Source: a virus. Taken from it: a stretch of 64,000 bases of DNA. Shown piece by piece: positions 11,210-21,716 of this stretch. The stretch covers positions 1-64,000 of the IMG/VR virus record IMGVR_UViG_3300047160_010363; one strand, given 5' to 3'. A program made the position numbers and the translations under genes. The notes below the pieces were generated by a model, which saw only the letters and a program-made list of their open reading frames with translations, did not search any database and was not told where the DNA came from. Each line of letters begins with the position of its first letter. Positions within the stretch are counted from its first letter, which is position 1.

Positions 11210-11376
11210 AAAAGAAAAGAGTCCGCAAGCCAAGGTCAGATCCGATGTGGCGTGGTGTGCGTGTTAAACCATACTTTCAAGATGCTCCTGTAGTAGAGAA
11301 GAGTCTTGTGGGTGTGCGAATCGACAAACCACTGTCAGTTGTCCACAAGTCGCTAACTGGCGGATCTTTTGTCTGA
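11206..11376 (+). CDS. Small basic hypothetical protein, 56 aa (not in track)
   Basis: MKKKRVRKPRSDPMWRG...; ATGA overlap upstream, overlaps portal start. Confidence 0.45.
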   Translation: MKKKRVRKPRSDPMWRGVRVKPYFQDAPVVEKSLVGVRIDKPLSVVHKSLTGGSFV

Positions 11377-12910
11377 CGTCAGCAACGTAGACCAGCAGTT
11401 TCCGAACGCATTTGTAGCGGTCTCGGCCAATGGGTTGGGCACTGCACTTCAAACATTGCTGTCTTGCGATGACATTCAGCCAGGATCAAACGCGAGCTAC
11501 CAGTTGTGCAAGACCATCTATCTGTACCATCCGCTCGGCGGTAAGATGGCTGAGGCGCCAGTGGCGCTGGCCCAGTCATCTGAACGTGAGATTGTAGTTC
11601 AAACTGGCCCAAAAGCAGTCGCCGAGGCGTTTGTCGAGGAGTGGAAGCGGCTTGAAGCCACTCGGACTATAGCCAACGTTGCGACTCAGTCGCGAGTTTA
11701 CGCTCTCGCTACAGTAGCCATGGTCATCGAGGGCAAGGAGTCGACTGAGCCCGTTGACCTCTGGGAGCTATGGAACGAAAAGCTTAGTTTCAATGTCTGG
11801 GACCCACTGAATACGTCTGGTCTGATCGTCGATCAGAATCCGAACAGTCCTACGTTTCAGAAGCATGGTGACATCATCTGCGGGGGGCAGCGCTACCACC
11901 GTAGTCGCACTCTGACGATGATGAATGAGGAGTCCATTTATATTGCATGGACTTCCTCTGCGTTTGCCTACGCCGGCCGCTCATGCTATCAGCGTGGGCT
12001 CTATCCATTGAAGTCGTTTATCAAGTCGATGGTGACTAATGACTTGATCTTGACAAAAGCTGGTGTGTTCATCGCTAAGATGAAGCCACCTGGCAGCATC
12101 ATCGATCGCGCGATGCAGTATCTTTACAACGTTAAGCGCAATATCCTCAAGCAGTCAGCGATCAGCAACGTCGTGACGATTGGCCTCGATGAGGACGTGT
12201 CGACGCTGAACATGCAGAACATCCAAGTCTACGACTTGGCGCGCAATAATGTGATCAAGGATATTGCAACTTCGGACAACATGCCAGCCAAGCTGTTGAC
12301 GCAGGAGGCGTTTGTCGAGGGATTTGGTGAGGGCACGCAGGATGCTTATGCCGTGGCGCAGTACGGTGAGCGTTTCCGCGCCAAGATGGAGCCAATATAC
12401 GAGTGGTTTGACTTGGTGTGTATGCACCGTGCGTGGAACCCGGAGTTTTACGAGACGATCCAGCGTCAGTACCCTGAAGAGTATGGTGACGTTGACTACA
12501 AGGAGGCCTTCTACCTCTGGAAGAACGGCTTTCAAGCCACTTGGCCCAGCCTGATACGCGAGCCTCCCAGCGAGGAAGTGCAAGTTGATGACGTAAAGCT
12601 CAAAGCACTGATCGCAGTCGTCCAGGTGTTTGCACCACTGCTCGATCCTGACAACATGGCGAAGCTCATCGAGTGGGCGTGTGATCAGCTAGGTGAGCGC
12701 GAGAGCTTGTTTGGTGGTGATGGGCCGTTGCTCGACTTTGAGGCGCTACGCGACCATATGGAAGAGCAGCAAGAGCAACAGCGTGCGATGGGTGAGGGAG
12801 GGCTTGAGGAGGCTGAGAACGCCGCACCGAGTAAGCCGTTCTCTGGTCGTGACTCGGTAGCTGCGAACGTGAGCCAGTTGGCGACCGTGCTGCATGCAGC
12901 GAGGCGTTGA
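11369..12910 (+). CDS. Portal protein (DUF1073-like)
   Basis: YQLCKTIYLYHPLG, DPLNT, GFGEGTQD, WPSL; position after terminase. Confidence 0.9.
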   Translation: MSDVSNVDQQFPNAFVAVSANGLGTALQTLLSCDDIQPGSNASYQLCKTIYLYHPLGGKMAEAPVALAQSSEREIVVQTGPKAVAEAFVEEWKRLEATRTIANVATQSRVYALATVAMVIEGKESTEPVDLWELWNEKLSFNVWDPLNTSGLIVDQNPNSPTFQKHGDIICGGQRYHRSRTLTMMNEESIYIAWTSSAFAYAGRSCYQRGLYPLKSFIKSMVTNDLILTKAGVFIAKMKPPGSIIDRAMQYLYNVKRNILKQSAISNVVTIGLDEDVSTLNMQNIQVYDLARNNVIKDIATSDNMPAKLLTQEAFVEGFGEGTQDAYAVAQYGERFRAKMEPIYEWFDLVCMHRAWNPEFYETIQRQYPEEYGDVDYKEAFYLWKNGFQATWPSLIREPPSEEVQVDDVKLKALIAVVQVFAPLLDPDNMAKLIEWACDQLGERESLFGGDGPLLDFEALRDHMEEQQEQQRAMGEGGLEEAENAAPSKPFSGRDSVAANVSQLATVLHAARR

Positions 12911-13205
12911 TGATGCTGCGAGCTATGTAGATGGGTACCTATGGGAATTGCTTGAGTTCTGAAGCGTTGATTCTCGCGAGGTGCCACATGACAGCCCTGT
13001 TTATCAAGCCCGCGACCACCAAGGAATTGCCTGGCGATCTGCACGCTCAGCTGGACGACGGAAATCTTTTGGTCCCGGTGCATGTTGCATATGTGTCCCC
13101 GCGCGCACCGGAGCCGCCAACGCGAACTCGTTTGAGAAATCACTGAGGGCAGATGTGGCGCGCGGCTAGCTAAACTACACAACCCACCATGGGCACCCAA
13201 GGAAC

Positions 13206-14033
13206 TTGATTTCTCGTCGCCGTCAACCTCAGTCTTTCTACCAAACTATAACTGCTGCAGTGGCCGACTTCACAGAACACGGCTTTGACAGCCAAGAGCG
13301 CCTCGACGGTTGGTTACTACAGTTGCGCAATGCTGCCCGCGCGGAGATCATCTCAGATCACGAGGCAGCGACCAAAATTCGTGAGGCGCTTGAGGCAGTA
13401 TATAAACGGATGGTCGATCGTGGTCAGATGCTGCGCCACCATCCAAGTGTTCAACGCTTTACGCTTGAGCGCGTGCGGCCTGCGCTGCGTGGTGAGCTAG
13501 ATCGTCGCATTGTGACGGCTGCAAACCTGATACGGATGAATCGTAACCAAGCTATTGAGAAGACACTACAGCGTTTTTCGGGGTGGGCTACTTCTATCCC
13601 GATCGGCGGCTCTGGCGCAGTCGATCGGGTGCCAGTAAAGAAGGAAATGCGCCAATCGTTGGCGGCGCTCTCGTTCATTGAACGTCGCGTGGCTACAGAC
13701 CAGAGCCACAAGCTAGCCGCCAACCTGAGCGAGATACTGGCTGTAGATGGTGGTGCATTGGCTGGTCGTTGGCACCGGCACTATACGCGGTACCCGCGCG
13801 AGGAGCACAAGCAGCGCGACGGACGTGTTTACGCGGTTCGTGGGAATTGGGCGCTAGCCAGAGGGCTGATGAATTCAGGACCCAATGGCTACACAGACGA
13901 GATCACCAAGCCTGGTGAGGAAGTAGATTGCCACTGCACCTACGAATGGTTTCACTCGCTGCGTGCTCTCCCGTCGGAAATGTTGACCGAGCGTGGACGC
14001 GACGAGCTTGAGAGGGTAAAGAGGGCTGCATGA
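13206..14033 (+). CDS. MuF/SPP1 gp7-like head morphogenesis protein
   Basis: W.....R.EH..RDG..Y; PGEEVDCHC; follows portal. Confidence 0.85.
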   Translation: MISRRRQPQSFYQTITAAVADFTEHGFDSQERLDGWLLQLRNAARAEIISDHEAATKIREALEAVYKRMVDRGQMLRHHPSVQRFTLERVRPALRGELDRRIVTAANLIRMNRNQAIEKTLQRFSGWATSIPIGGSGAVDRVPVKKEMRQSLAALSFIERRVATDQSHKLAANLSEILAVDGGALAGRWHRHYTRYPREEHKQRDGRVYAVRGNWALARGLMNSGPNGYTDEITKPGEEVDCHCTYEWFHSLRALPSEMLTERGRDELERVKRAA

Positions 14034-15052: not shown

Positions 15053-15559
15053 TTGAACATTAGTTCTGGTTTCCACCGCGACTTCCTCGGACCCATCGAG
15101 ACAATCTTGGGGTCACTGGACAAGGTTTATCCAGTCGCCAAACTTGGCGAGGTTAGACTATTTGAACGCGAGGGCGACCGATCGTTGGCCCACGCTGATG
15201 GCCGTGATTTGGTGCTTAATGCGCTGTGGTTTACGCGACCCCGTGCGGTATTTGACGAAGCTGCAAAGCTCGGTCGCGAGGCACTCCCGTTTGGAATGCC
15301 GCTTTGGCACGGAGGGATGGGCGAGCCGGAGCATGTTTTAACTCACGAGTTTTGGCATGTATTGGCCTTATCGTTGGCTGGCAGTGCAGAGTTTGCGGAG
15401 TCAGGTCACGCGGCAGTCCTGAGCAATCCAGCGATTGCGGCTTCTGGGTACGCGATGGTGGACCCAGATGAGTGGGGCGCTGAGACGTTTGCTGCGTTGC
15501 GTCTTGGCCACGCGGCGTCGTTGCAAGTAGCTGAAATGGAGGGATTTCTTGCGAGCTAG
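15053..15559 (+). CDS. Zincin-like metallopeptidase
   Basis: THEFWH (HExxH) plus SGYA....EWGAETF third-ligand motif. Confidence 0.75.
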   Translation: MNISSGFHRDFLGPIETILGSLDKVYPVAKLGEVRLFEREGDRSLAHADGRDLVLNALWFTRPRAVFDEAAKLGREALPFGMPLWHGGMGEPEHVLTHEFWHVLALSLAGSAEFAESGHAAVLSNPAIAASGYAMVDPDEWGAETFAALRLGHAASLQVAEMEGFLAS

Positions 15560-15795: not shown

Positions 15796-16236
15796 GTGAA
15801 GATCAAAACAATACTCGTACTACTGGCTGGACTATCGATGCCCGCCATTGCAATGGCAGACCCAATCGCCGTCAACTCGTGCGGGACGCTGTCCGGTGGG
15901 TCCTACGTATTGGAGGCTGACCTTACTGCTTCTACTCCAGGCAAGTATTGCTTGAAGGCGCTGGGGCTATCCACGATCGACCTCAACGGGTTTTCGATCA
16001 GCGGCGTCGGCAATGGCATTTCTGCCGATGTTGCCGCAACAGTAAAAAATGGTTTCTTCTCAATGATGAGCGGTGCGGTCGCCGTGAACATAACTTCGGC
16101 AGGGGGCCGCGTTACCGACATAAGCGTGGTCAAGGGTCGCGTATTGGTGGCCTGTCCTGCCGTCGTTAGCCACAGTGTCATCCCCGACCTGGAGGAAAGT
16201 GGTACTGGATGCATCGTCTACGGAGTTGCCAAGTAG
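15796..16236 (+). CDS. Signal-peptide protein, short beta-helix-like
   Basis: AGGAGG SD; MKIKTILVLLAGLSMPAIAMA; GSYVL.ADL, TIDLNGFSISG. Confidence 0.7.
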   Translation: MKIKTILVLLAGLSMPAIAMADPIAVNSCGTLSGGSYVLEADLTASTPGKYCLKALGLSTIDLNGFSISGVGNGISADVAATVKNGFFSMMSGAVAVNITSAGGRVTDISVVKGRVLVACPAVVSHSVIPDLEESGTGCIVYGVAK

Positions 16237-16247
16237 GCGACCATTAG

Positions 16248-17807
16248 TTGTCCACAGGCATCTCACCGCAGTGCTTCGCGTGCGGTCGTCTGGTTGGGGT
16301 TGTTCCTGGTCAGGGATGGGCATGCGAGGCGTTTGGTGATAAGCCAATACCAAAGGAGATACTCGTCAATGCACACGACCATCGTAAGCCGTACCGCGGC
16401 GACGGTGGTTTAATGTTTGTTGATAAGAATAAGTCTAATATAGACGCTATTTTGGCACGGATTGATGGGTGGAACGAGCAGGATCATCCGCGTAATCCAG
16501 AGGGCTCAAGTAAAGGGGGACAGTTTACATCTAGTGGCGGTAGTAGTGGAAAATTCACTCCTGAAGAACAACATTTAAGTAATTATGTTTCAAAGGAGCC
16601 GGGGAGTGAATTGCATTCTCATCAGATAAATGCTGGTTTACGGCGTGAGTCTGGTTTAACTGGTGAGCAGAAAGAGGCAGTGAAAGGTATCGATGCGATC
16701 TTTGCCAGTGCACCTCCTACTACTAAACCGATGGTTCTCTATCGCGGAATGCCAACTTCGGTTTTAGGTGATAAACCAAATACAGTTGGATGGGAAAAGG
16801 GGTATTCATCTACTTCCACTGATTTTGAAAATGCACGTGCTTACACTCAGGAAAGTAAAGTTGGTGTGGTTTATGAAATACATGTGCCAGTAGGTTCCAA
16901 GGTTATTGACACTGGGAAGTATGATTTAGCTCATGGCGGTGAAGAAGATGAGGTGTTATTGCCACGAGGTAGTCGTTTTGTAATAGATAAACGGTATAAG
17001 AAAGATGGTGTAAAAGTAGTTAGCGTTAGAATGGTTGATGGTATGCGTGGCAGAGTAGATAATGCTATTTGTCGCGCTGCAGGTGTCATGTTCGTCGCTC
17101 CAGATGGCGCGGTGCTGATGCTTCGCCGCAGCGCCAACGCCTCTGACCATTTAGGCGAGTGGGCGTTCCCTGGTGGTGGCGTTGAGGGCGACGAGACAGT
17201 TGAAGACGCTGCGCGACGTGAAGCGATCGAGGAAGTTGGCACGCATTACTATGGTGATCTGGAGCCCTGGACGCGACGTGTGCGCGATGGTGTTGACTTC
17301 ACTCTATTCAGGCAGCACGTGCCGGAGAGGTTTGACCCGGTTCTCAACGAGGAGCACGACGCGTTTCAGTGGGTTGACACGCGAGCTGATTCTGAGTTTG
17401 TAGAGAGTGAGCATCCACGCGATAAAGATGGTAAGTTTTCTGAAATTCTTGTTACAGAAGAAGGTCAGAAATTTTATCATGGCACTTCCGAGGAAAATAT
17501 GCACTCGATCCTTAAGCAGGGGATCACTCCAGAAGGCTCAGGGCGACAATCTGGACTTCCAGGAGTTCATGAGACAGGAGTTCATGCGCATGTCACTTTT
17601 GACCCAGGCACAGCTAATCGCTACGCAAATTCAGCAACAGCGATTGGTAAAGAGCCAGTAGTCTTTCAAGTTGAATTCCCTGTGGGGACTCGACTGAATG
17701 AGGATATGACTGCGACTGCCGCTTATAAATATAAAGGTGTAATCAAACCTGAGTGGATTACTAATCGTGCTATTGGCGGGATTTGGCAAAAGCGCTTTAC
17801 AAGGTGA
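16248..17807 (+). CDS. Multidomain head-linked protein: Cys/His domain + R-S-E ADP-ribosyltransferase + Nudix hydrolase + second ART-fold domain
   Basis: LYRG / YSSTST / EEDEVLLPRG; Nudix box GGVEGDETVEDAARREAIEEVG; FYHGTS....SILKQGI; two [DE]HPR...G[QK]F motifs. Confidence 0.85.
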   Translation: MSTGISPQCFACGRLVGVVPGQGWACEAFGDKPIPKEILVNAHDHRKPYRGDGGLMFVDKNKSNIDAILARIDGWNEQDHPRNPEGSSKGGQFTSSGGSSGKFTPEEQHLSNYVSKEPGSELHSHQINAGLRRESGLTGEQKEAVKGIDAIFASAPPTTKPMVLYRGMPTSVLGDKPNTVGWEKGYSSTSTDFENARAYTQESKVGVVYEIHVPVGSKVIDTGKYDLAHGGEEDEVLLPRGSRFVIDKRYKKDGVKVVSVRMVDGMRGRVDNAICRAAGVMFVAPDGAVLMLRRSANASDHLGEWAFPGGGVEGDETVEDAARREAIEEVGTHYYGDLEPWTRRVRDGVDFTLFRQHVPERFDPVLNEEHDAFQWVDTRADSEFVESEHPRDKDGKFSEILVTEEGQKFYHGTSEENMHSILKQGITPEGSGRQSGLPGVHETGVHAHVTFDPGTANRYANSATAIGKEPVVFQVEFPVGTRLNEDMTATAAYKYKGVIKPEWITNRAIGGIWQKRFTR

Positions 17808-17843
17808 CCAATGACTGTTGAGTTCAACTCATAAAGTAGTAAT

Positions 17844-19634
17844 GTGCCTCTCCCAACCCCTCTTCATCCAGGTGTTGCAGTTGCACTGCGACGCGCCGAT
17901 ATGGATGAGACGCAAATTGCCCAAGCTATCCGCGATGGTGAACTAGCGTCGCCGCAGAAGTTTGCCAATTCGTGGTACTTTGCGCTACGCATCACTGGGA
18001 CTGGTGCTGCGTACCGTCAGCAGCTCAAAGAGTACGTCTGGCGTGACTCTTCGCTCTACCTCAACGACCACTTCCTCGCGCGCTGTAATGGTCTCCCGGT
18101 CATCGTTGAGCACCCACCAGGGCTCATGCTCAACAGTGAGGAGTACGCCGACCGAAATATTGGCTCCGTCGTGCTCCCATTCATCCCAGATGGTGCATTT
18201 CTTGAAGCGAATTCAAAAGCTAAACCGGAAGAAGTATGGGGCGTCGCGAGGATACTTGACGAGCGCGCTGCGCGATACATGCGTGATCACGTTTCCAGTA
18301 CGTCACCTGCGGTTGTATTCAAAGATCCAGACGACAACGATACCGTCACTATGGAGGACGGTAAACATTTGCTCATCGAGGGGAAGCCCACGCTCCTCGA
18401 CCACTTGGCGATTTGCGAGCTTGGCACGTGGGATAAACAAGGTCCGCCCAGTGGTGTGGACGTGAGCAACGGAGAAGGTGGTATGGCTGAAGAGGACAAG
18501 AAAGAAGAGAAGATGGAAGAGGACGCTCGTGACGATGCTAATTCGAGCGACACGAAGTTGGACAAGATCTTGGCACATCTCGACAGTGCCCACAAGAAGA
18601 TGGACGCCCACGGGAAGCGCATGGATGACTTGTCCAAGCGCATGGACGCCTACGACTCCAAGAAAGACGACACCGAGGAAGAGGCGGAGCTCGAGGAGCG
18701 TCAGGCCAGCGAACTGAAGAAGCTCGCTGAGGAAGAGGAGCACGAGGCTGAGGAGGCGCGTGAGGATAAACGCGCTGACGATGCGTCTCACCACCTCCAT
18801 CGCCGCGACGATGAGAGCATGGCCGCCCACAGTAAGCGCGTCGACGCTTTTGCACGCAAGCACCGTCTCGATTCTATCATGTGCCGCGACGATGAGAGTG
18901 CTCGTGACCACTCGTGCCGTGTCGACGAGATGTCCCCTGAGGACTTCGAAGGCATGGGTGCGCCAAAGGCAGTTGAGACGTCCAATGACGATGACCGCAA
19001 GCGCGATGATCGTAGGGCTCGCGACGATGACCGCAAGCGCGATGATCGTAGGGCTCGCGACGATGATAATGAGGACGATGACGATTCCATGTCCCGTGAC
19101 GACCGCAAGCGCGATGACGATGATGACGATCGCAAACGCGCTGATTCGATCCTGAAAAGGGACATGGACACGATCAAGTCGGCAGTAGCTGCTCTTGCGC
19201 GTAAGGTTAAAGACCCGAGCGATGAGTTGCGTTCAGCGTTTGCAGATGCGCAAGCCAGGGCTGACTCTGTGTTTGCCCAGTTTGGTCAGCAGGCTCCGCC
19301 TCCATTGCAGGGTGAGCGGTTACTGCCGTATCAGATCAGGATGGCCCGCAAGCTCCAGCAACACAGCAAGATCTGGGCCAAGACTGACTTGGCTGCAGTG
19401 GCCAAGGCCGATCGCGGTGCATTCGAGAACGCATTGACGATGATTTACGCCGATGCAGTTCAAGCCGCGCGCAGCCCCACCGACTTGCCGCCGATGACAT
19501 TGCGGGAAGTGGTCAAGCGTCGGCCGGGTGGCGGGGAAGAGTCAACCTTTGTCGGCGACGCGATAGCGTGCTGGCTACCGTTTATGGCTCCTGGCCGAGC
19601 TGCCAAGCGGTTGAGTTTTCAGAAGAGGATTTAA
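17844..19634 (+). CDS. Head maturation protease / scaffold (DUF2213-like)
   Basis: RITGTG.AYR, NGLPVIVEHP, STSP, DHLAIC..G.WDK; long D/E/K/R-rich scaffold; start uncertain. Confidence 0.85.
   Translation: MPLPTPLHPGVAVALRRADMDETQIAQAIRDGELASPQKFANSWYFALRITGTGAAYRQQLKEYVWRDSSLYLNDHFLARCNGLPVIVEHPPGLMLNSEEYADRNIGSVVLPFIPDGAFLEANSKAKPEEVWGVARILDERAARYMRDHVSSTSPAVVFKDPDDNDTVTMEDGKHLLIEGKPTLLDHLAICELGTWDKQGPPSGVDVSNGEGGMAEEDKKEEKMEEDARDDANSSDTKLDKILAHLDSAHKKMDAHGKRMDDLSKRMDAYDSKKDDTEEEAELEERQASELKKLAEEEEHEAEEAREDKRADDASHHLHRRDDESMAAHSKRVDAFARKHRLDSIMCRDDESARDHSCRVDEMSPEDFEGMGAPKAVETSNDDDRKRDDRRARDDDRKRDDRRARDDDNEDDDDSMSRDDRKRDDDDDDRKRADSILKRDMDTIKSAVAALARKVKDPSDELRSAFADAQARADSVFAQFGQQAPPPLQGERLLPYQIRMARKLQQHSKIWAKTDLAAVAKADRGAFENALTMIYADAVQAARSPTDLPPMTLREVVKRRPGGGEESTFVGDAIACWLPFMAPGRAAKRLSFQKRI
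18987..19066 (+). repeat. 36-bp tandem repeat (about 2.2 copies) in scaffold
   Basis: GACGATGACCGCAAGCGCGATGATCGTAGGGCTCGC twice, encoding DDDRKRDDRRAR. Confidence 0.85.
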
Positions 19635-20693: not shown

Positions 20694-21716
20694 ATGGCCA
20701 CTATTGCGCCGGCATTTTTGACGGTGAATCCGCACTACATGGAACCAGAGATGGTCGTGGCTTACAACCAGGCCAGTGGAGCGTTTGATACCCTGCCTGG
20801 GGGTGCACCGAGAGTCAGGCTGGGTGATGGGGACTTGGCAGTTTACGCCAAGCGCATTGACGTGCGCACTCGCGTAGCCGCCAGTCAGGCTGCTGCGAAT
20901 GTGCTCCCAAGCTGTACTGTGGTTAGCCAGTTGCTTGGCACTGCAACATATCTCCAGAGGGTGCGTGCGGAGTACGACCACCACGACACTGCCGCGGCTG
21001 GCAACTGGGGTTACTCGATCGTTGATGCGCACCGCTTGGCGATGCGTCAGGGGCACTTTCAGCTAATGCGCAATGCGCTGCTGTACGGGTACAACCCGGT
21101 GAATGGTGAGGGTTTTCTCAACGCTCAGGGTGCTACTGCGATCACATTGCCGGCTGACTCGCTTGGCGATACGACGATTGTTACTTATGATGCAGGGCAG
21201 TTGGCCTTTTTCTTAACGAACCAGATCGGTTTGATGAAGGCGCGCACCAACCAACTCGGCATTGGCCGTACGTTCGTCTTTCTGATGCCCCAGCGGGATG
21301 GCCAGCAAATTGAGTATGCGGACATCGTCCAGCTCGTTCAGTTTCAACGCACTGGTGCTGGCACTAACACCACAGCCGGTACGGTCAAAGACATCGCTAT
21401 GGATAACGGTGATACGGTGTTCTGGTGTTACGACGACACGCTGATCGGCAAAGGTGCTGGCGGGACAGACGCGATTCTGCTCGTTATGCCCGAGGTTGAG
21501 CGGCCGGTGGCGAATGCTATCAATACGAATGAGTTCGCGTCCCTCACGCCGTCGATGGCAGCGTGCACACTGCTCTATACCGACATGCCAGCGCCTCGTG
21601 AGATCCCAGTTCCAATTGCCGGTGGTGCCATCGACATCACTAGTGAGATCCGCACCTCGTCTGGGTGGGGCATCAGGCCAGAGGCAATCACGATTATCTC
21701 TGCACAATATCAGTAA
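20694..21716 (+). CDS. Major capsid protein (DUF2184-like, HK97 fold)
   Basis: 340 aa; RAEYDHHD, LLYG...GEGFLN, SGWGIRPEA; gene order. Confidence 0.9.
   Translation: MATIAPAFLTVNPHYMEPEMVVAYNQASGAFDTLPGGAPRVRLGDGDLAVYAKRIDVRTRVAASQAAANVLPSCTVVSQLLGTATYLQRVRAEYDHHDTAAAGNWGYSIVDAHRLAMRQGHFQLMRNALLYGYNPVNGEGFLNAQGATAITLPADSLGDTTIVTYDAGQLAFFLTNQIGLMKARTNQLGIGRTFVFLMPQRDGQQIEYADIVQLVQFQRTGAGTNTTAGTVKDIAMDNGDTVFWCYDDTLIGKGAGGTDAILLVMPEVERPVANAINTNEFASLTPSMAACTLLYTDMPAPREIPVPIAGGAIDITSEIRTSSGWGIRPEAITIISAQYQ

What the first reader, a model, noticed from the sequence alone, without database searches (positions are those of the whole stretch)
16248..17807. Head-linked ART-Nudix-ART polyprotein with R-x-D at every domain junction
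Seen: four domains (Cys/His, R-S-E ART, Nudix, HGT-type ART fold) joined at ARID|GW (16458-16466), GRVD|NA (17052-17060) and TRAD|SE (17382-17390). Each ART starts with the same tag (WNEQDHPR...GGQFT; FVESEHPRDKDGKFS). The ART segments look AT-richer. R-x-D and R-D also recur through the adjacent scaffold (KRMD, KRAD, KRVD, HRLD) and the portal tail (GRDS). Established: phage ARTs such as T4 Alt are packaged and injected; some Nudix enzymes cleave ADP-ribose. Inference: the head protease cuts after Asp to release tagged effectors, i.e. two ADP-ribose writers plus an eraser or anti-defence hydrolase, in swappable modules.
Basis: partly seen in the sequence, partly recalled or inferred. Interest (0 to 1): 0.85.

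Follow-up and report, generated by a model that had tools for sequence, protein, structure and literature searches.

The report
Tagged phage-head effector polyprotein
An uncultured phage encodes, just before its head protease, one protein that strings together two ADP-ribosylating enzymes and a Nudix hydrolase, joined by a widespread short tag and a probable protease cut site, so it is probably cargo cut up in the head and injected; this is untested.

Summary
ORF 16248-17807 (519 aa, TTG start backed by homolog N-termini) has four parts: a conserved Cys3-His module, an Alt/VIP2-type ART with R, STS and ExE motifs, a T4 NudE-like Nudix, and a small Tpt1/PARP-like ART. ARID, GRVD and TRAD sit exactly at the three junctions. 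Both ARTs begin with the [FW]xExxHPR..G.F tag. Both ART cassettes are strongly AT-shifted (GC3 0.29 and 0.33, against 0.59 for the Nudix).

The next gene is a T4 gp21-like protease fused to an acidic scaffold. In most relatives the Nudix is fused directly to that protease, and here the second ART cassette plus two stop codons split the fusion.

[RK]xD[ASG] is about 5-fold enriched in the linkers and scaffolds of 80 clade homologs. Glu versions of the motif are not enriched.

The tag is not ART-specific. It follows portals and proteases and precedes many effector types in at least 117 viral contigs. I found no Pfam model or paper that describes it.

Cleavage after Asp is plausible but unproven. 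Head-packaged ART/Nudix polyvalent proteins are already published, and this scan had already noted the tag in at least 32 other genomes. I rate it a new variant of a known kind, of moderate interest.

The parts
16248..17807 (+). 519-aa polyvalent cargo protein: CysHis, tag, ART1, Nudix, tag, ART2
   Evidence: The TTG start matches homolog N-termini.
16248..16433 (+). N-terminal Cys3-His module (residues 1-62), probably zinc-binding; no named family
   Evidence: C9, C12, C26 and H45 are nearly invariant. It is also the N-terminus of 1000-1300 aa polyproteins that end in protease-scaffold, L007 and L047. There is no Pfam or Atlas match.
16455..16466 (+). Junction 1, A-R-I-D, immediately before tag 1
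16470..16526 (+). Tag 1, W-N-E-Q-D-H-P-R-x9-G-Q-F (long-spacer variant), followed by a Gly/Ser linker
   Evidence: The same long variant (HPRGQP.N.GQF) is seen in other phages.
16614..17000 (+). ART1, R-S-E clade (Alt/VIP2/C3-type) ADP-ribosyltransferase with R166, S188-T-S190 and E233-x-E235
   Evidence: Pfam PF03496, E 7e-12, 45.5 bits against a cutoff of 23.4. Motifs. GC3 is 0.29.
17049..17060 (+). Junction 2, G-R-V-D, between ART1 and Nudix, with no tag; sharp GC step from 0.38 to 0.60
   Evidence: Relatives carry QRMD|S, AKAD|S, VKAD|A and AKKD|S in the same linker.
17073..17378 (+). Nudix hydrolase with an intact Nudix box, T4 NudE-like; the conserved core of the family
   Evidence: Pfam PF00293, E 8e-18. 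30% identity to T4 NudE, E 2e-9. It is fused to the protease in 54 of 80 IMG/VR loci.
17379..17390 (+). Junction 3, T-R-A-D, before tag 2; D381 is nearly invariant in the family
17397..17438 (+). Tag 2, F-V-E-S-E-H-P-R-D-K-D-G-K-F (canonical form)
17460..17804 (+). ART2, a minimal ART-fold domain (Tpt1/KptA and PARP-like) with H411, H448 (aromatic in relatives) and invariant D486
   Evidence: AF2 pLDDT 83. Foldseek finds KptA/Tpt1 at E 2.5e-5, then ART toxins. Weak Pfam PARP and Tpt1 hits. Homologs are fused to DUF2213 and to a portal. GC3 is 0.33.
17805..17834 (+). TGA (17805-17807) and in-frame TAA (17832-17834) separating the polyprotein from the protease gene, which lies in the same frame
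17844..18485 (+). T4 gp21-like (assemblin-fold) head maturation protease domain; begins MPLPTPLHPG, the motif that follows the Nudix in fused relatives
   Evidence: AF2 pLDDT 84. T4 gp21 is the top match at Z 10.1, rmsd 2.7 over 131 aa; herpes assemblins score Z 5-7. phrog_6216, E 1e-117..
18486..19634 (+). Acidic scaffold part of the protease-scaffold protein, rich in K-R-[MVA]-D motifs, with a conserved C-terminal region
   Evidence: R-x-D occurs 20 times against 7.4 expected; positions are listed. Clade-wide enrichment.
15053..15559 (+). Conserved 168-aa protein with an invariant HExxH (H98, E99, H102); a possible metallopeptidase and so a rival processing enzyme
   Evidence: No Pfam, PHROG or PDB match.
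11369..14033 (+). Context: portal (11369-12910) and MuF-like head morphogenesis protein (13206-14033)
   Evidence: phrog_146, E 1.6e-44, and phrog_324, E 4.6e-23
20694..21716 (+). Context: major capsid protein
   Evidence: phrog_6671, E 1e-139, and a weak PF09950 hit

Best explanation
This is a phage 'polyvalent' head-cargo protein. It is made late, together with the portal, MuF, protease-scaffold and capsid proteins.

Proposed steps:
1. It enters the procapsid core, most likely through its two [FW]xExxHPR..G.F tags. Each tag is a short peptide followed by a Gly/Ser linker. I read it as a cargo-loading or leader peptide, analogous to the T4 capsid targeting sequence.
2. The neighbouring T4 gp21-like protease cuts it at [RK]-x-D|[SAGN] sites in the three linkers. 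The same protease chops its own acidic scaffold at the many K-R-x-D sites.
3. This releases a Cys/His piece, a tagged Arg-type ART, a NudE-like Nudix and a tagged Tpt1/PARP-like ART. These are injected with the DNA to modify host targets and to hydrolyse ADP-ribose or NAD-type nucleotides.

Shown: the domain identities, the protease fold, motif conservation and enrichment, and the mosaic cassette structure.

Inferred: packaging, cleavage, the position of the cut, and the targets.
For: - Domains are identified.
- The neighbouring gene is a gp21-like protease fused to a scaffold.
- Relatives carry the same modules covalently on head proteins. Nudix-protease(-scaffold) occurs in 54 of 80 loci. 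ART1-Nudix-protease-scaffold occurs in P0011, P0012, P0013, P0031, P0034 and P0086. ART2-DUF2213 is P0122 and portal-tag-ART2 is P0123. CysHis-...-Nudix-DUF2213-scaffold polyproteins of 1000-1300 aa are L007 and L047. Such fusions must be cut for the scaffold to leave the head.
- Basic-x-Asp is conserved in otherwise variable linkers. After the Nudix, relatives have GRAD|A, GRSD|A, PRAD|A, ARAD|S and LRID|S. Between ART1 and Nudix they have QRMD|S, AKAD|S, VKAD|A and AKKD|S.
- In the linkers and scaffolds of 80 clade homologs, [RK]xD[ASG] occurs 194 times against 38 expected, and [RK][LMIVA]D[AS] 106 times against 9.3. There are 188 distinct sequence contexts. The Glu analogues and the reversed motif are not enriched.
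- The window's portal, MuF, capsid and other head-region proteins hold 2 [RK]xD against 7.1 expected.
- Stand-alone tagged cargo genes start M-A-E-[FW]-x-E-S-E-HPR, which is exactly the position after the Asp (P0031; L125, L128 and L139).
- An Asp 2-3 residues before the tag is seen in 12 of 13 tags in loci with a DUF2213-type protease, against 36 of 79 in other loci (Fisher p 0.0015).
- Precedent: T4 gp21 cuts Alt at both ends and cuts scaffold gp22 at many L/I-x-E sites, and the CTS targets cargo into the head (PMC9026906).
- Packaged ARTs and Nudix domains fused to MuF, portal and the capsid peptidase are described in PMC9503650.
Against: - There is no virion proteomics or N-terminal data for this clade.
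- Known gp21-type proteases cut after Glu, and in T4 an Asp at that position blocks processing. P1=Asp would need a changed specificity pocket.
- The Arg/Lys two residues before the Asp is not conserved in the wider DUF2213 clade (1 of 13 tags). There the Asp looks like part of the tag itself.
- The scaffold K-R-M-D units recur about every seven residues, so they could be structural repeats.
- The shuffle statistics ignore the relatedness of the homologs.
- Here the polyprotein is not fused to any head protein, because two stops precede the protease. Packaging therefore rests on the tag hypothesis alone.
Confidence: 0.5

Rival explanations
1. The modules are cut apart, but inside the tag, after its invariant Glu ([FW]-x-E|S-E-HPR). 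This is the same hydrophobic-x-Glu rule used by T4 gp21. The upstream R-x-D would then be only flanking sequence.
For: F/W at -5 and E at -3 are invariant in 96 of 96 and 61 of 62 tags, and a small residue (Ser in 64 of 96) follows. The protease model is closest to T4 gp21, which cuts after L/I-x-E.
Against: Junction 2 (GRVD|NA) has no tag and no h-x-E site. h-x-E[ASG] is not enriched in this clade's scaffolds (ratio 0.89), whereas [RK]xD[ASG] is enriched 5.1-fold. Stand-alone cargo genes start at A-E-F, upstream of that Glu. If the cut fell after the Glu, half of the conserved tag would be discarded.
Confidence: 0.15
2. There is no processing. The protein is packaged and injected, or acts, as one intact polyvalent protein. 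R-x-D is part of the tag's acidic N-terminal extension and of a structural repeat in the scaffold.
For: Some polyvalent proteins, such as N4 vRNAP, ArdC and TraC1, are delivered uncut (PMC5512222). D-A-[DE]-F without Arg is the general form of the tag. The scaffold K-R-M-D units have a heptad-like spacing.
Against: Relatives that fuse the cargo to protease-scaffold or to the portal need cleavage to free it. Junction 2 keeps basic-x-Asp without any tag. The motif is depleted in the window's head-region proteins outside the polyprotein and scaffold.
Confidence: 0.2
3. The protein is not virion cargo. It is a late-expressed cytoplasmic enzyme set, or the linkers are cut by another enzyme such as the HExxH protein at 15053-15559 or a host protease.
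For: The protein is separated from the protease by two stops. A conserved HExxH protein lies three ORFs upstream. Metallopeptidases are proposed processing enzymes of polyvalent proteins.
Against: The gene sits inside the portal-MuF-protease-capsid block. Every module has relatives fused to head proteins. The HExxH protein matches no peptidase family.
Confidence: 0.12

Closest known systems
T4 Alt and internal proteins IPI-III, with their capsid targeting sequence and gp21 processing (PMC9026906)
   Same: An ART is carried in the head and injected. A short leader peptide directs cargo into the scaffold core. An assemblin-fold protease trims the cargo and shreds the scaffold at a three-residue motif with an acidic P1. 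The protease model here is closest to gp21 (Z 10.1).
   Different: Here several effectors sit in one polypeptide. The candidate site is basic-x-Asp rather than L/I-x-Glu. The tag lies downstream of the candidate cut, so it would stay on the cargo, whereas the T4 CTS is removed. The tag sequence is unrelated to the CTS.
Phage polyvalent proteins (Iyer, Burroughs, Anand, de Souza, Aravind 2017, PMC5512222)
   Same: It is a multi-effector protein encoded among late and head genes and predicted to be injected. ART domains are the commonest modifiers in these proteins, and relatives of ART2 carry ART-PolyVal hits.
   Different: That paper proposes autoproteolysis by embedded metallopeptidase domains. 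My term searches of it found no mention of the HPR tag or of a head-protease junction site.
Virion-packaged NAD+/ADPr enzymes of phages (PMC9503650)
   Same: The paper describes T4 NudE-like Nudix domains fused to MuF, the portal and the capsid-processing serine peptidase, and Alt/VIP2 ARTs in head modules. That is the family seen here.
   Different: In this window the ancestral Nudix-peptidase fusion is split by an inserted ART cassette. Two ARTs of different clades flank the Nudix.
phiKZ and SPN3US ejection proteins cut by gp175 and gp245 (PMC10052503, PMC9026906)
   Same: Many head-internal proteins are processed at a short motif by a diverged gp21 homolog.
   Different: Those enzymes cut after Glu ([SAG]-x-E). 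The phages are giant viruses with separate cargo genes and no HPR tag has been reported in them.
MuF polymorphic toxins of temperate phages (PMC5576092)
   Same: A head-protein anchor is combined with interchangeable C-terminal toxin or effector modules.
   Different: There is no MuF fusion here; MuF is a separate gene at 13206. That paper does not mention a junction motif.

Membership tests
R-S-E clade ADP-ribosyltransferases (Pfam PF03496; Alt, VIP2, C3) | Profile match above the curated cutoff | tested here: met
   45.5 bits against a cutoff of 23.4, E 7e-12, residues 123-251
R-S-E clade ADP-ribosyltransferases (Pfam PF03496; Alt, VIP2, C3) | Catalytic Arg, S-T-S and E-x-E motifs in order | tested here: met
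   Y-R166-G, S188-T-S190 and E233-D-E235
R-S-E clade ADP-ribosyltransferases (Pfam PF03496; Alt, VIP2, C3) | NAD+-dependent ADP-ribosylation activity | not testable with these tools
   Needs an enzyme assay
Nudix hydrolases (PF00293), T4 NudE-like clade | Profile match and an intact Nudix box (G-x5-E-x7-R-E-x2-E-E-x-G) | tested here: met
   65.2 bits against a cutoff of 21.1. G310, E316, R324, E325, E328, E329 and G331 are invariant.
Nudix hydrolases (PF00293), T4 NudE-like clade | Specific relatedness to T4 NudE rather than to other Nudix subfamilies | tested here: inconclusive
   30% identity, pairwise E 2e-9, to T4 NudE. NudI, RppH and MutT models match at similar levels, all below their own cutoffs.
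H-Y-E / Tpt1-KptA-type ART fold (ART2) | ART fold | tested here: met
   AF2 pLDDT 83. Foldseek finds KptA/Tpt1 at E 2.5e-5 and probability 1.0, TM 0.51-0.54, followed by ART toxins.
H-Y-E / Tpt1-KptA-type ART fold (ART2) | Canonical triad (H-Y-E, or H-H-h of Tpt1) and, for Tpt1, the N-terminal RNA-phosphate lobe | tested here: inconclusive
   H411 is invariant, position 448 is H/Y/F, and D486 is invariant where Glu would be expected. There is no N-terminal Tpt1 lobe. Pfam PARP and Tpt1 hits are below their cutoffs.
Phage polyvalent proteins (Iyer 2017) | Two or more unrelated effector domains in one polypeptide of a phage, in a late or virion gene context | tested here: met
   Three enzymatic domains plus one Cys/His module lie between MuF and the protease.
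T4 gp21 / assemblin-fold prohead proteases (neighbouring gene 17844) | Fold match | tested here: met
   5jbl_B at Z 10.1, rmsd 2.7, 131 of 164 residues, well above the next rows
T4 gp21 / assemblin-fold prohead proteases (neighbouring gene 17844) | Conserved catalytic Ser and His at equivalent positions | tested here: inconclusive
   H90, S152-T-S154 and D186/H187 are invariant or nearly so in 29 homologs. Residue equivalence to the gp21 catalytic residues was not checked.
T4-type CTS cargo system | Leader-dependent packaging and protease-dependent trimming of the cargo | not testable with these tools
   Needs virion proteomics and genetics

The most novel reading that the evidence does not exclude
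The [FW]xExxHPR..G.F peptide would be a general, portable capsid-cargo address used across many tailed-phage lineages. It heads stand-alone cargo genes and every module of polyvalent, portal-fused and protease-fused cargo. Each lineage would pair it with the cut site of its own head protease. In this clade a gp21-like protease would have switched from P1 Glu to P1 Asp with a basic P3.
Probability: 0.3. Interest if true: 0.75.

Novelty: new variant of a known kind. Interest (0 to 1): 0.55.

Why it matters
If the tag and the basic-x-Asp site work as proposed, they give a simple sequence rule for finding what a phage injects with its DNA. They would also allow foreign proteins to be loaded into the heads of phages outside the T4 group. 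The case also shows cassette exchange caught in the act. Two AT-rich ART cassettes were dropped into a conserved Nudix-protease gene at the junction motifs, which suggests how phages reshuffle anti-host and anti-defence enzymes. A P1-Asp gp21 homolog would extend the known specificities of capsid maturation proteases. None of this changes the established picture that phages package ARTs and Nudix enzymes.

Tried and rejected
- Stop-codon readthrough into the protease is unlikely. The two ORFs share a frame, but TGA and TAA both intervene.
- No close cultured relative exists. Megablast of 11 kb against phages found nothing. tblastn found only Nudix or ART pieces below 46% identity.
- The protease-scaffold gene matches Shewanella, Pantoea, Klebsiella and Yersinia phages at 40-46% identity. 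I found no proteomics for them.
- A search for DUF2213 found no biochemical paper. 'EHPR' with 'phage' returned nothing relevant by title or abstract, and the hits were not opened.
- No Pfam family covers the tag, even in proteins with 3-9 copies.
- The Cys/His module has no Pfam hit and only sub-threshold Atlas neighbours. It was not folded because the two structure jobs went to ART2 and the protease.
- The search for related loci with the whole protein and with P0159 found nothing.
- I tried to link non-Asp tag contexts to other protease types through P0155 relatives. This gave a portal-adjacent polyvalent array but no identifiable protease, so the test is inconclusive.
- The HExxH protein at 15053 has no detectable family.
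- The portal tail 'GRDS' was rejected as part of the pattern.
Full report
**Observation**

The window carries an intact 519-aa ORF at 16248-17807 (+). Its TTG start is supported by homologs that begin MSTGIAPQC.... The database gene call of 464 aa, starting at M56, is therefore truncated.

Pfam places an ADPrib_exo_Tox domain at residues 123-251 (E 7e-12) and a NUDIX domain at 276-377 (E 8e-18), both above their curated cutoffs. ART1 has the R166, S188-T-S190 and E233-x-E235 motifs.

Residues 1-62 form a conserved module. C9, C12, C26 and H45 are nearly invariant in nine homologs. It has no named family.

The C-terminal 115 residues gave only weak PARP and Tpt1 hits. An AlphaFold model built on 21 homologs (pLDDT 83) matches KptA/Tpt1 ART lobes best (E 2.5e-5). 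Rhs ART toxins, scabin and cholera/pertussis-type ARTs follow. H411 and D486 are invariant, and position 448 is H, Y or F in relatives.

The ART cassettes are strongly AT-shifted. GC3 is 0.29 and 0.33, against 0.59 for the Nudix and 0.57-0.66 for the portal, MuF, protease and capsid genes. Sharp steps fall at GRVD|NA and TRAD|SE.

**Surroundings**

The gene sits in a head module: portal (11369), MuF-like protein (13206), this gene, then 17844-19634, a 304-aa protein, and the major capsid protein (20694).

The N-terminal 215 residues of the 17844 product fold (pLDDT 84) like T4 gp21. The match has Z 10.1 and rmsd 2.7 over 131 residues, clearly above the herpesvirus assemblins at Z 5-7. The rest of the protein is an acidic scaffold with a conserved C-terminus.

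In about 100 database homologs and in 54 of 80 IMG/VR loci, the Nudix is fused directly to this protease. The connecting motif is LHPGv..AL.RfDMDELgiAkAi.dGEL.SPQ. The window's protease begins MPLPTPLHPGVAVAL. The second ART cassette, with a TGA and an in-frame TAA, has therefore split an ancestral Nudix-protease-scaffold gene. Another note of this scan (e1-5994193) says the same.

Relatives also show these architectures:
- ChaB-like-tag-ART1-Nudix-protease-scaffold (P0011, P0012, P0013, P0031, P0034, P0086).
- tag-ART2-DUF2213 (P0122) and portal-tag-ART2 (P0123).
- CysHis-tag-...-Nudix-DUF2213-scaffold giants of 1000-1300 aa (L007, L047).
- CysHis-Nudix proteins with other cassettes in the same slots, including an NT5C nucleotidase, further unassigned or Cys-rich segments and topoisomerase IB.

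The modules are thus head-linked and interchangeable.

**The tag**

[FW]-x-E-x-x-H-P-R-x(2-9)-G-x-[FW], followed by a Gly/Ser stretch, is not specific to ARTs.
- It occurs 62 times in 33 of 173 retrieved proteins, with up to nine copies in one protein.
I expected only a few such matches by chance, from my own estimate of about 36 bits of pattern information.
- In 96 tags from 74 ORFs, F/W and E are invariant. The motif extends upstream as D-A-[DE]-F.
- It follows PF06381 portals and DUF2213 domains. It precedes TopoIB, Zeta-toxin-like, LPD3, GNAT and ART domains.
- Stand-alone cargo genes begin M-A-E-[FW]-x-E-S-E-HPR.
- No Pfam model covers it. I found no mention in the polyvalent-protein, NAD/ADPr or MuF-toxin papers.
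- This scan has noted the same tag in at least 32 other genomes. Those are unverified AI notes, not independent evidence.

**The basic-x-Asp motif**

In the polyprotein, R-x-D occurs 5 times against 2.0 expected, and three of these fall in the ~34 linker residues (p about 0.0025).

Relatives keep the motif in otherwise variable linkers. After the Nudix they have GRAD|A, GRSD|A, PRAD|A and ARAD|S. Between ART1 and Nudix they have QRMD|S, AKAD|S, VKAD|A and AKKD|S.

Across the non-domain regions of 80 protease-clade proteins:
- [RK]xD[ASG] occurs 194 times against 38 expected under shuffling.
- [RK][LMIVA]D[AS] occurs 106 times against 9.3.
- 188 sequence contexts are distinct.
- [RK]xE[ASG], h-x-E[ASG], [ASG]xE[ASG] and the reversed D-x-[RK] are not enriched.

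The window's portal, MuF, capsid and other head-region proteins together hold 2 [RK]xD against 7.1 expected (p 0.03).

An Asp 2-3 residues before the tag is found in 12 of 13 tags in loci with a DUF2213-type protease, against 36 of 79 in other loci (p 0.0015). The basic residue is not general there (1 of 13).

Caveats: the shuffles ignore the relatedness of the homologs. The scaffold K-R-M-D units recur about every seven residues and could be structural.

**Mechanism**

I read the protein as head cargo that is cut apart. It would be loaded into the procapsid core, probably through the tags, and cut at basic-x-Asp by the gp21-like protease, which would also shred its own scaffold. The pieces would then be ejected into the host.

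T4 gives the precedent. gp21 cuts after L/I-x-E, trims Alt at both ends, fragments gp22, and a 10-residue CTS loads cargo (PMC9026906).

Against this reading, Asp at P1 blocks T4 gp21. There is no proteomic evidence, and this polyprotein is not covalently tied to a head protein.

The rivals are cleavage after the tag's invariant Glu, no cleavage at all, and no packaging or processing by another enzyme such as the conserved HExxH protein at 15053-15559.

The Nudix is 30% identical to T4 NudE, which is annotated as active on FAD, ApnA, ADP-ribose and NADH. A role in ADP-ribose or NAD-type hydrolysis is reasonable but unproven. NudI, RppH and MutT models score similarly.

**Novelty**

Head-packaged ART and Nudix effectors, and polyvalent proteins, are published (PMC5512222, PMC9503650). 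Three things are new here:
- the junction grammar of a basic-x-Asp site plus the tag;
- the candidate P1-Asp specificity of a gp21 homolog;
- a clear example of AT-rich cassettes inserted at the junctions, one of which splits the Nudix-protease fusion.

I rate this a new variant of a known kind, interest 0.55.

Noticed in passing
window 15053-15559 (+): A 168-aa protein with an invariant HExxH (H98, E99, H102) is conserved in 12 metagenomic homologs. It has no Pfam, PHROG or PDB match. It lies between the MuF gene and the polyprotein and may be a small metallopeptidase.
   Followed up: partly
window 16413 (M56) versus 16248: The public gene call for this protein (P0002, 464 aa) starts at M56 and cuts off the conserved Cys3-His module. 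Homolog N-termini support the TTG at 16248.
   Followed up: yes
window 17808-17846: The protease gene starts at a GTG with no obvious Shine-Dalgarno sequence. It lies 36 nt after the polyprotein stop, in the same frame, with a second in-frame TAA between them. This suggests re-initiation or coupling after a recent cassette insertion.
   Followed up: partly
window 18590-18680 (protease-scaffold residues ~250-275): K-K-M-D-A-H-G / K-R-M-D-D-L-S / K-R-M-D-A-Y-D forms a seven-residue repeat just after the protease domain. The equivalent C-x-R-M-D-[SA] segment is conserved in homolog scaffolds (P0012, P0034, P0086 and others).
   Followed up: partly
P0004, P0006, P0007, P0015, P0036; L017 and L047 ORFs: A second small Cys-rich module recurs as another cassette in these polyproteins. 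An example is C-R-G-C-x(8-9)-C-x(11-12)-W-C. It has no family name.
   Followed up: no
L084 10001-20142 (+): An IMG/VR phage with a family A DNA polymerase and a phrog_12 portal carries an array of four polyvalent ORFs directly after the portal. The largest is 1700 aa. Its tags are preceded by K-W instead of D-A-x-F. No head protease was identified in the 25 kb read.
   Followed up: partly
window 15796-16236 (+): A 146-aa ORF with a signal-peptide-like N-terminus lies directly upstream of the polyprotein, inside the head module. It matches no family.
   Followed up: no
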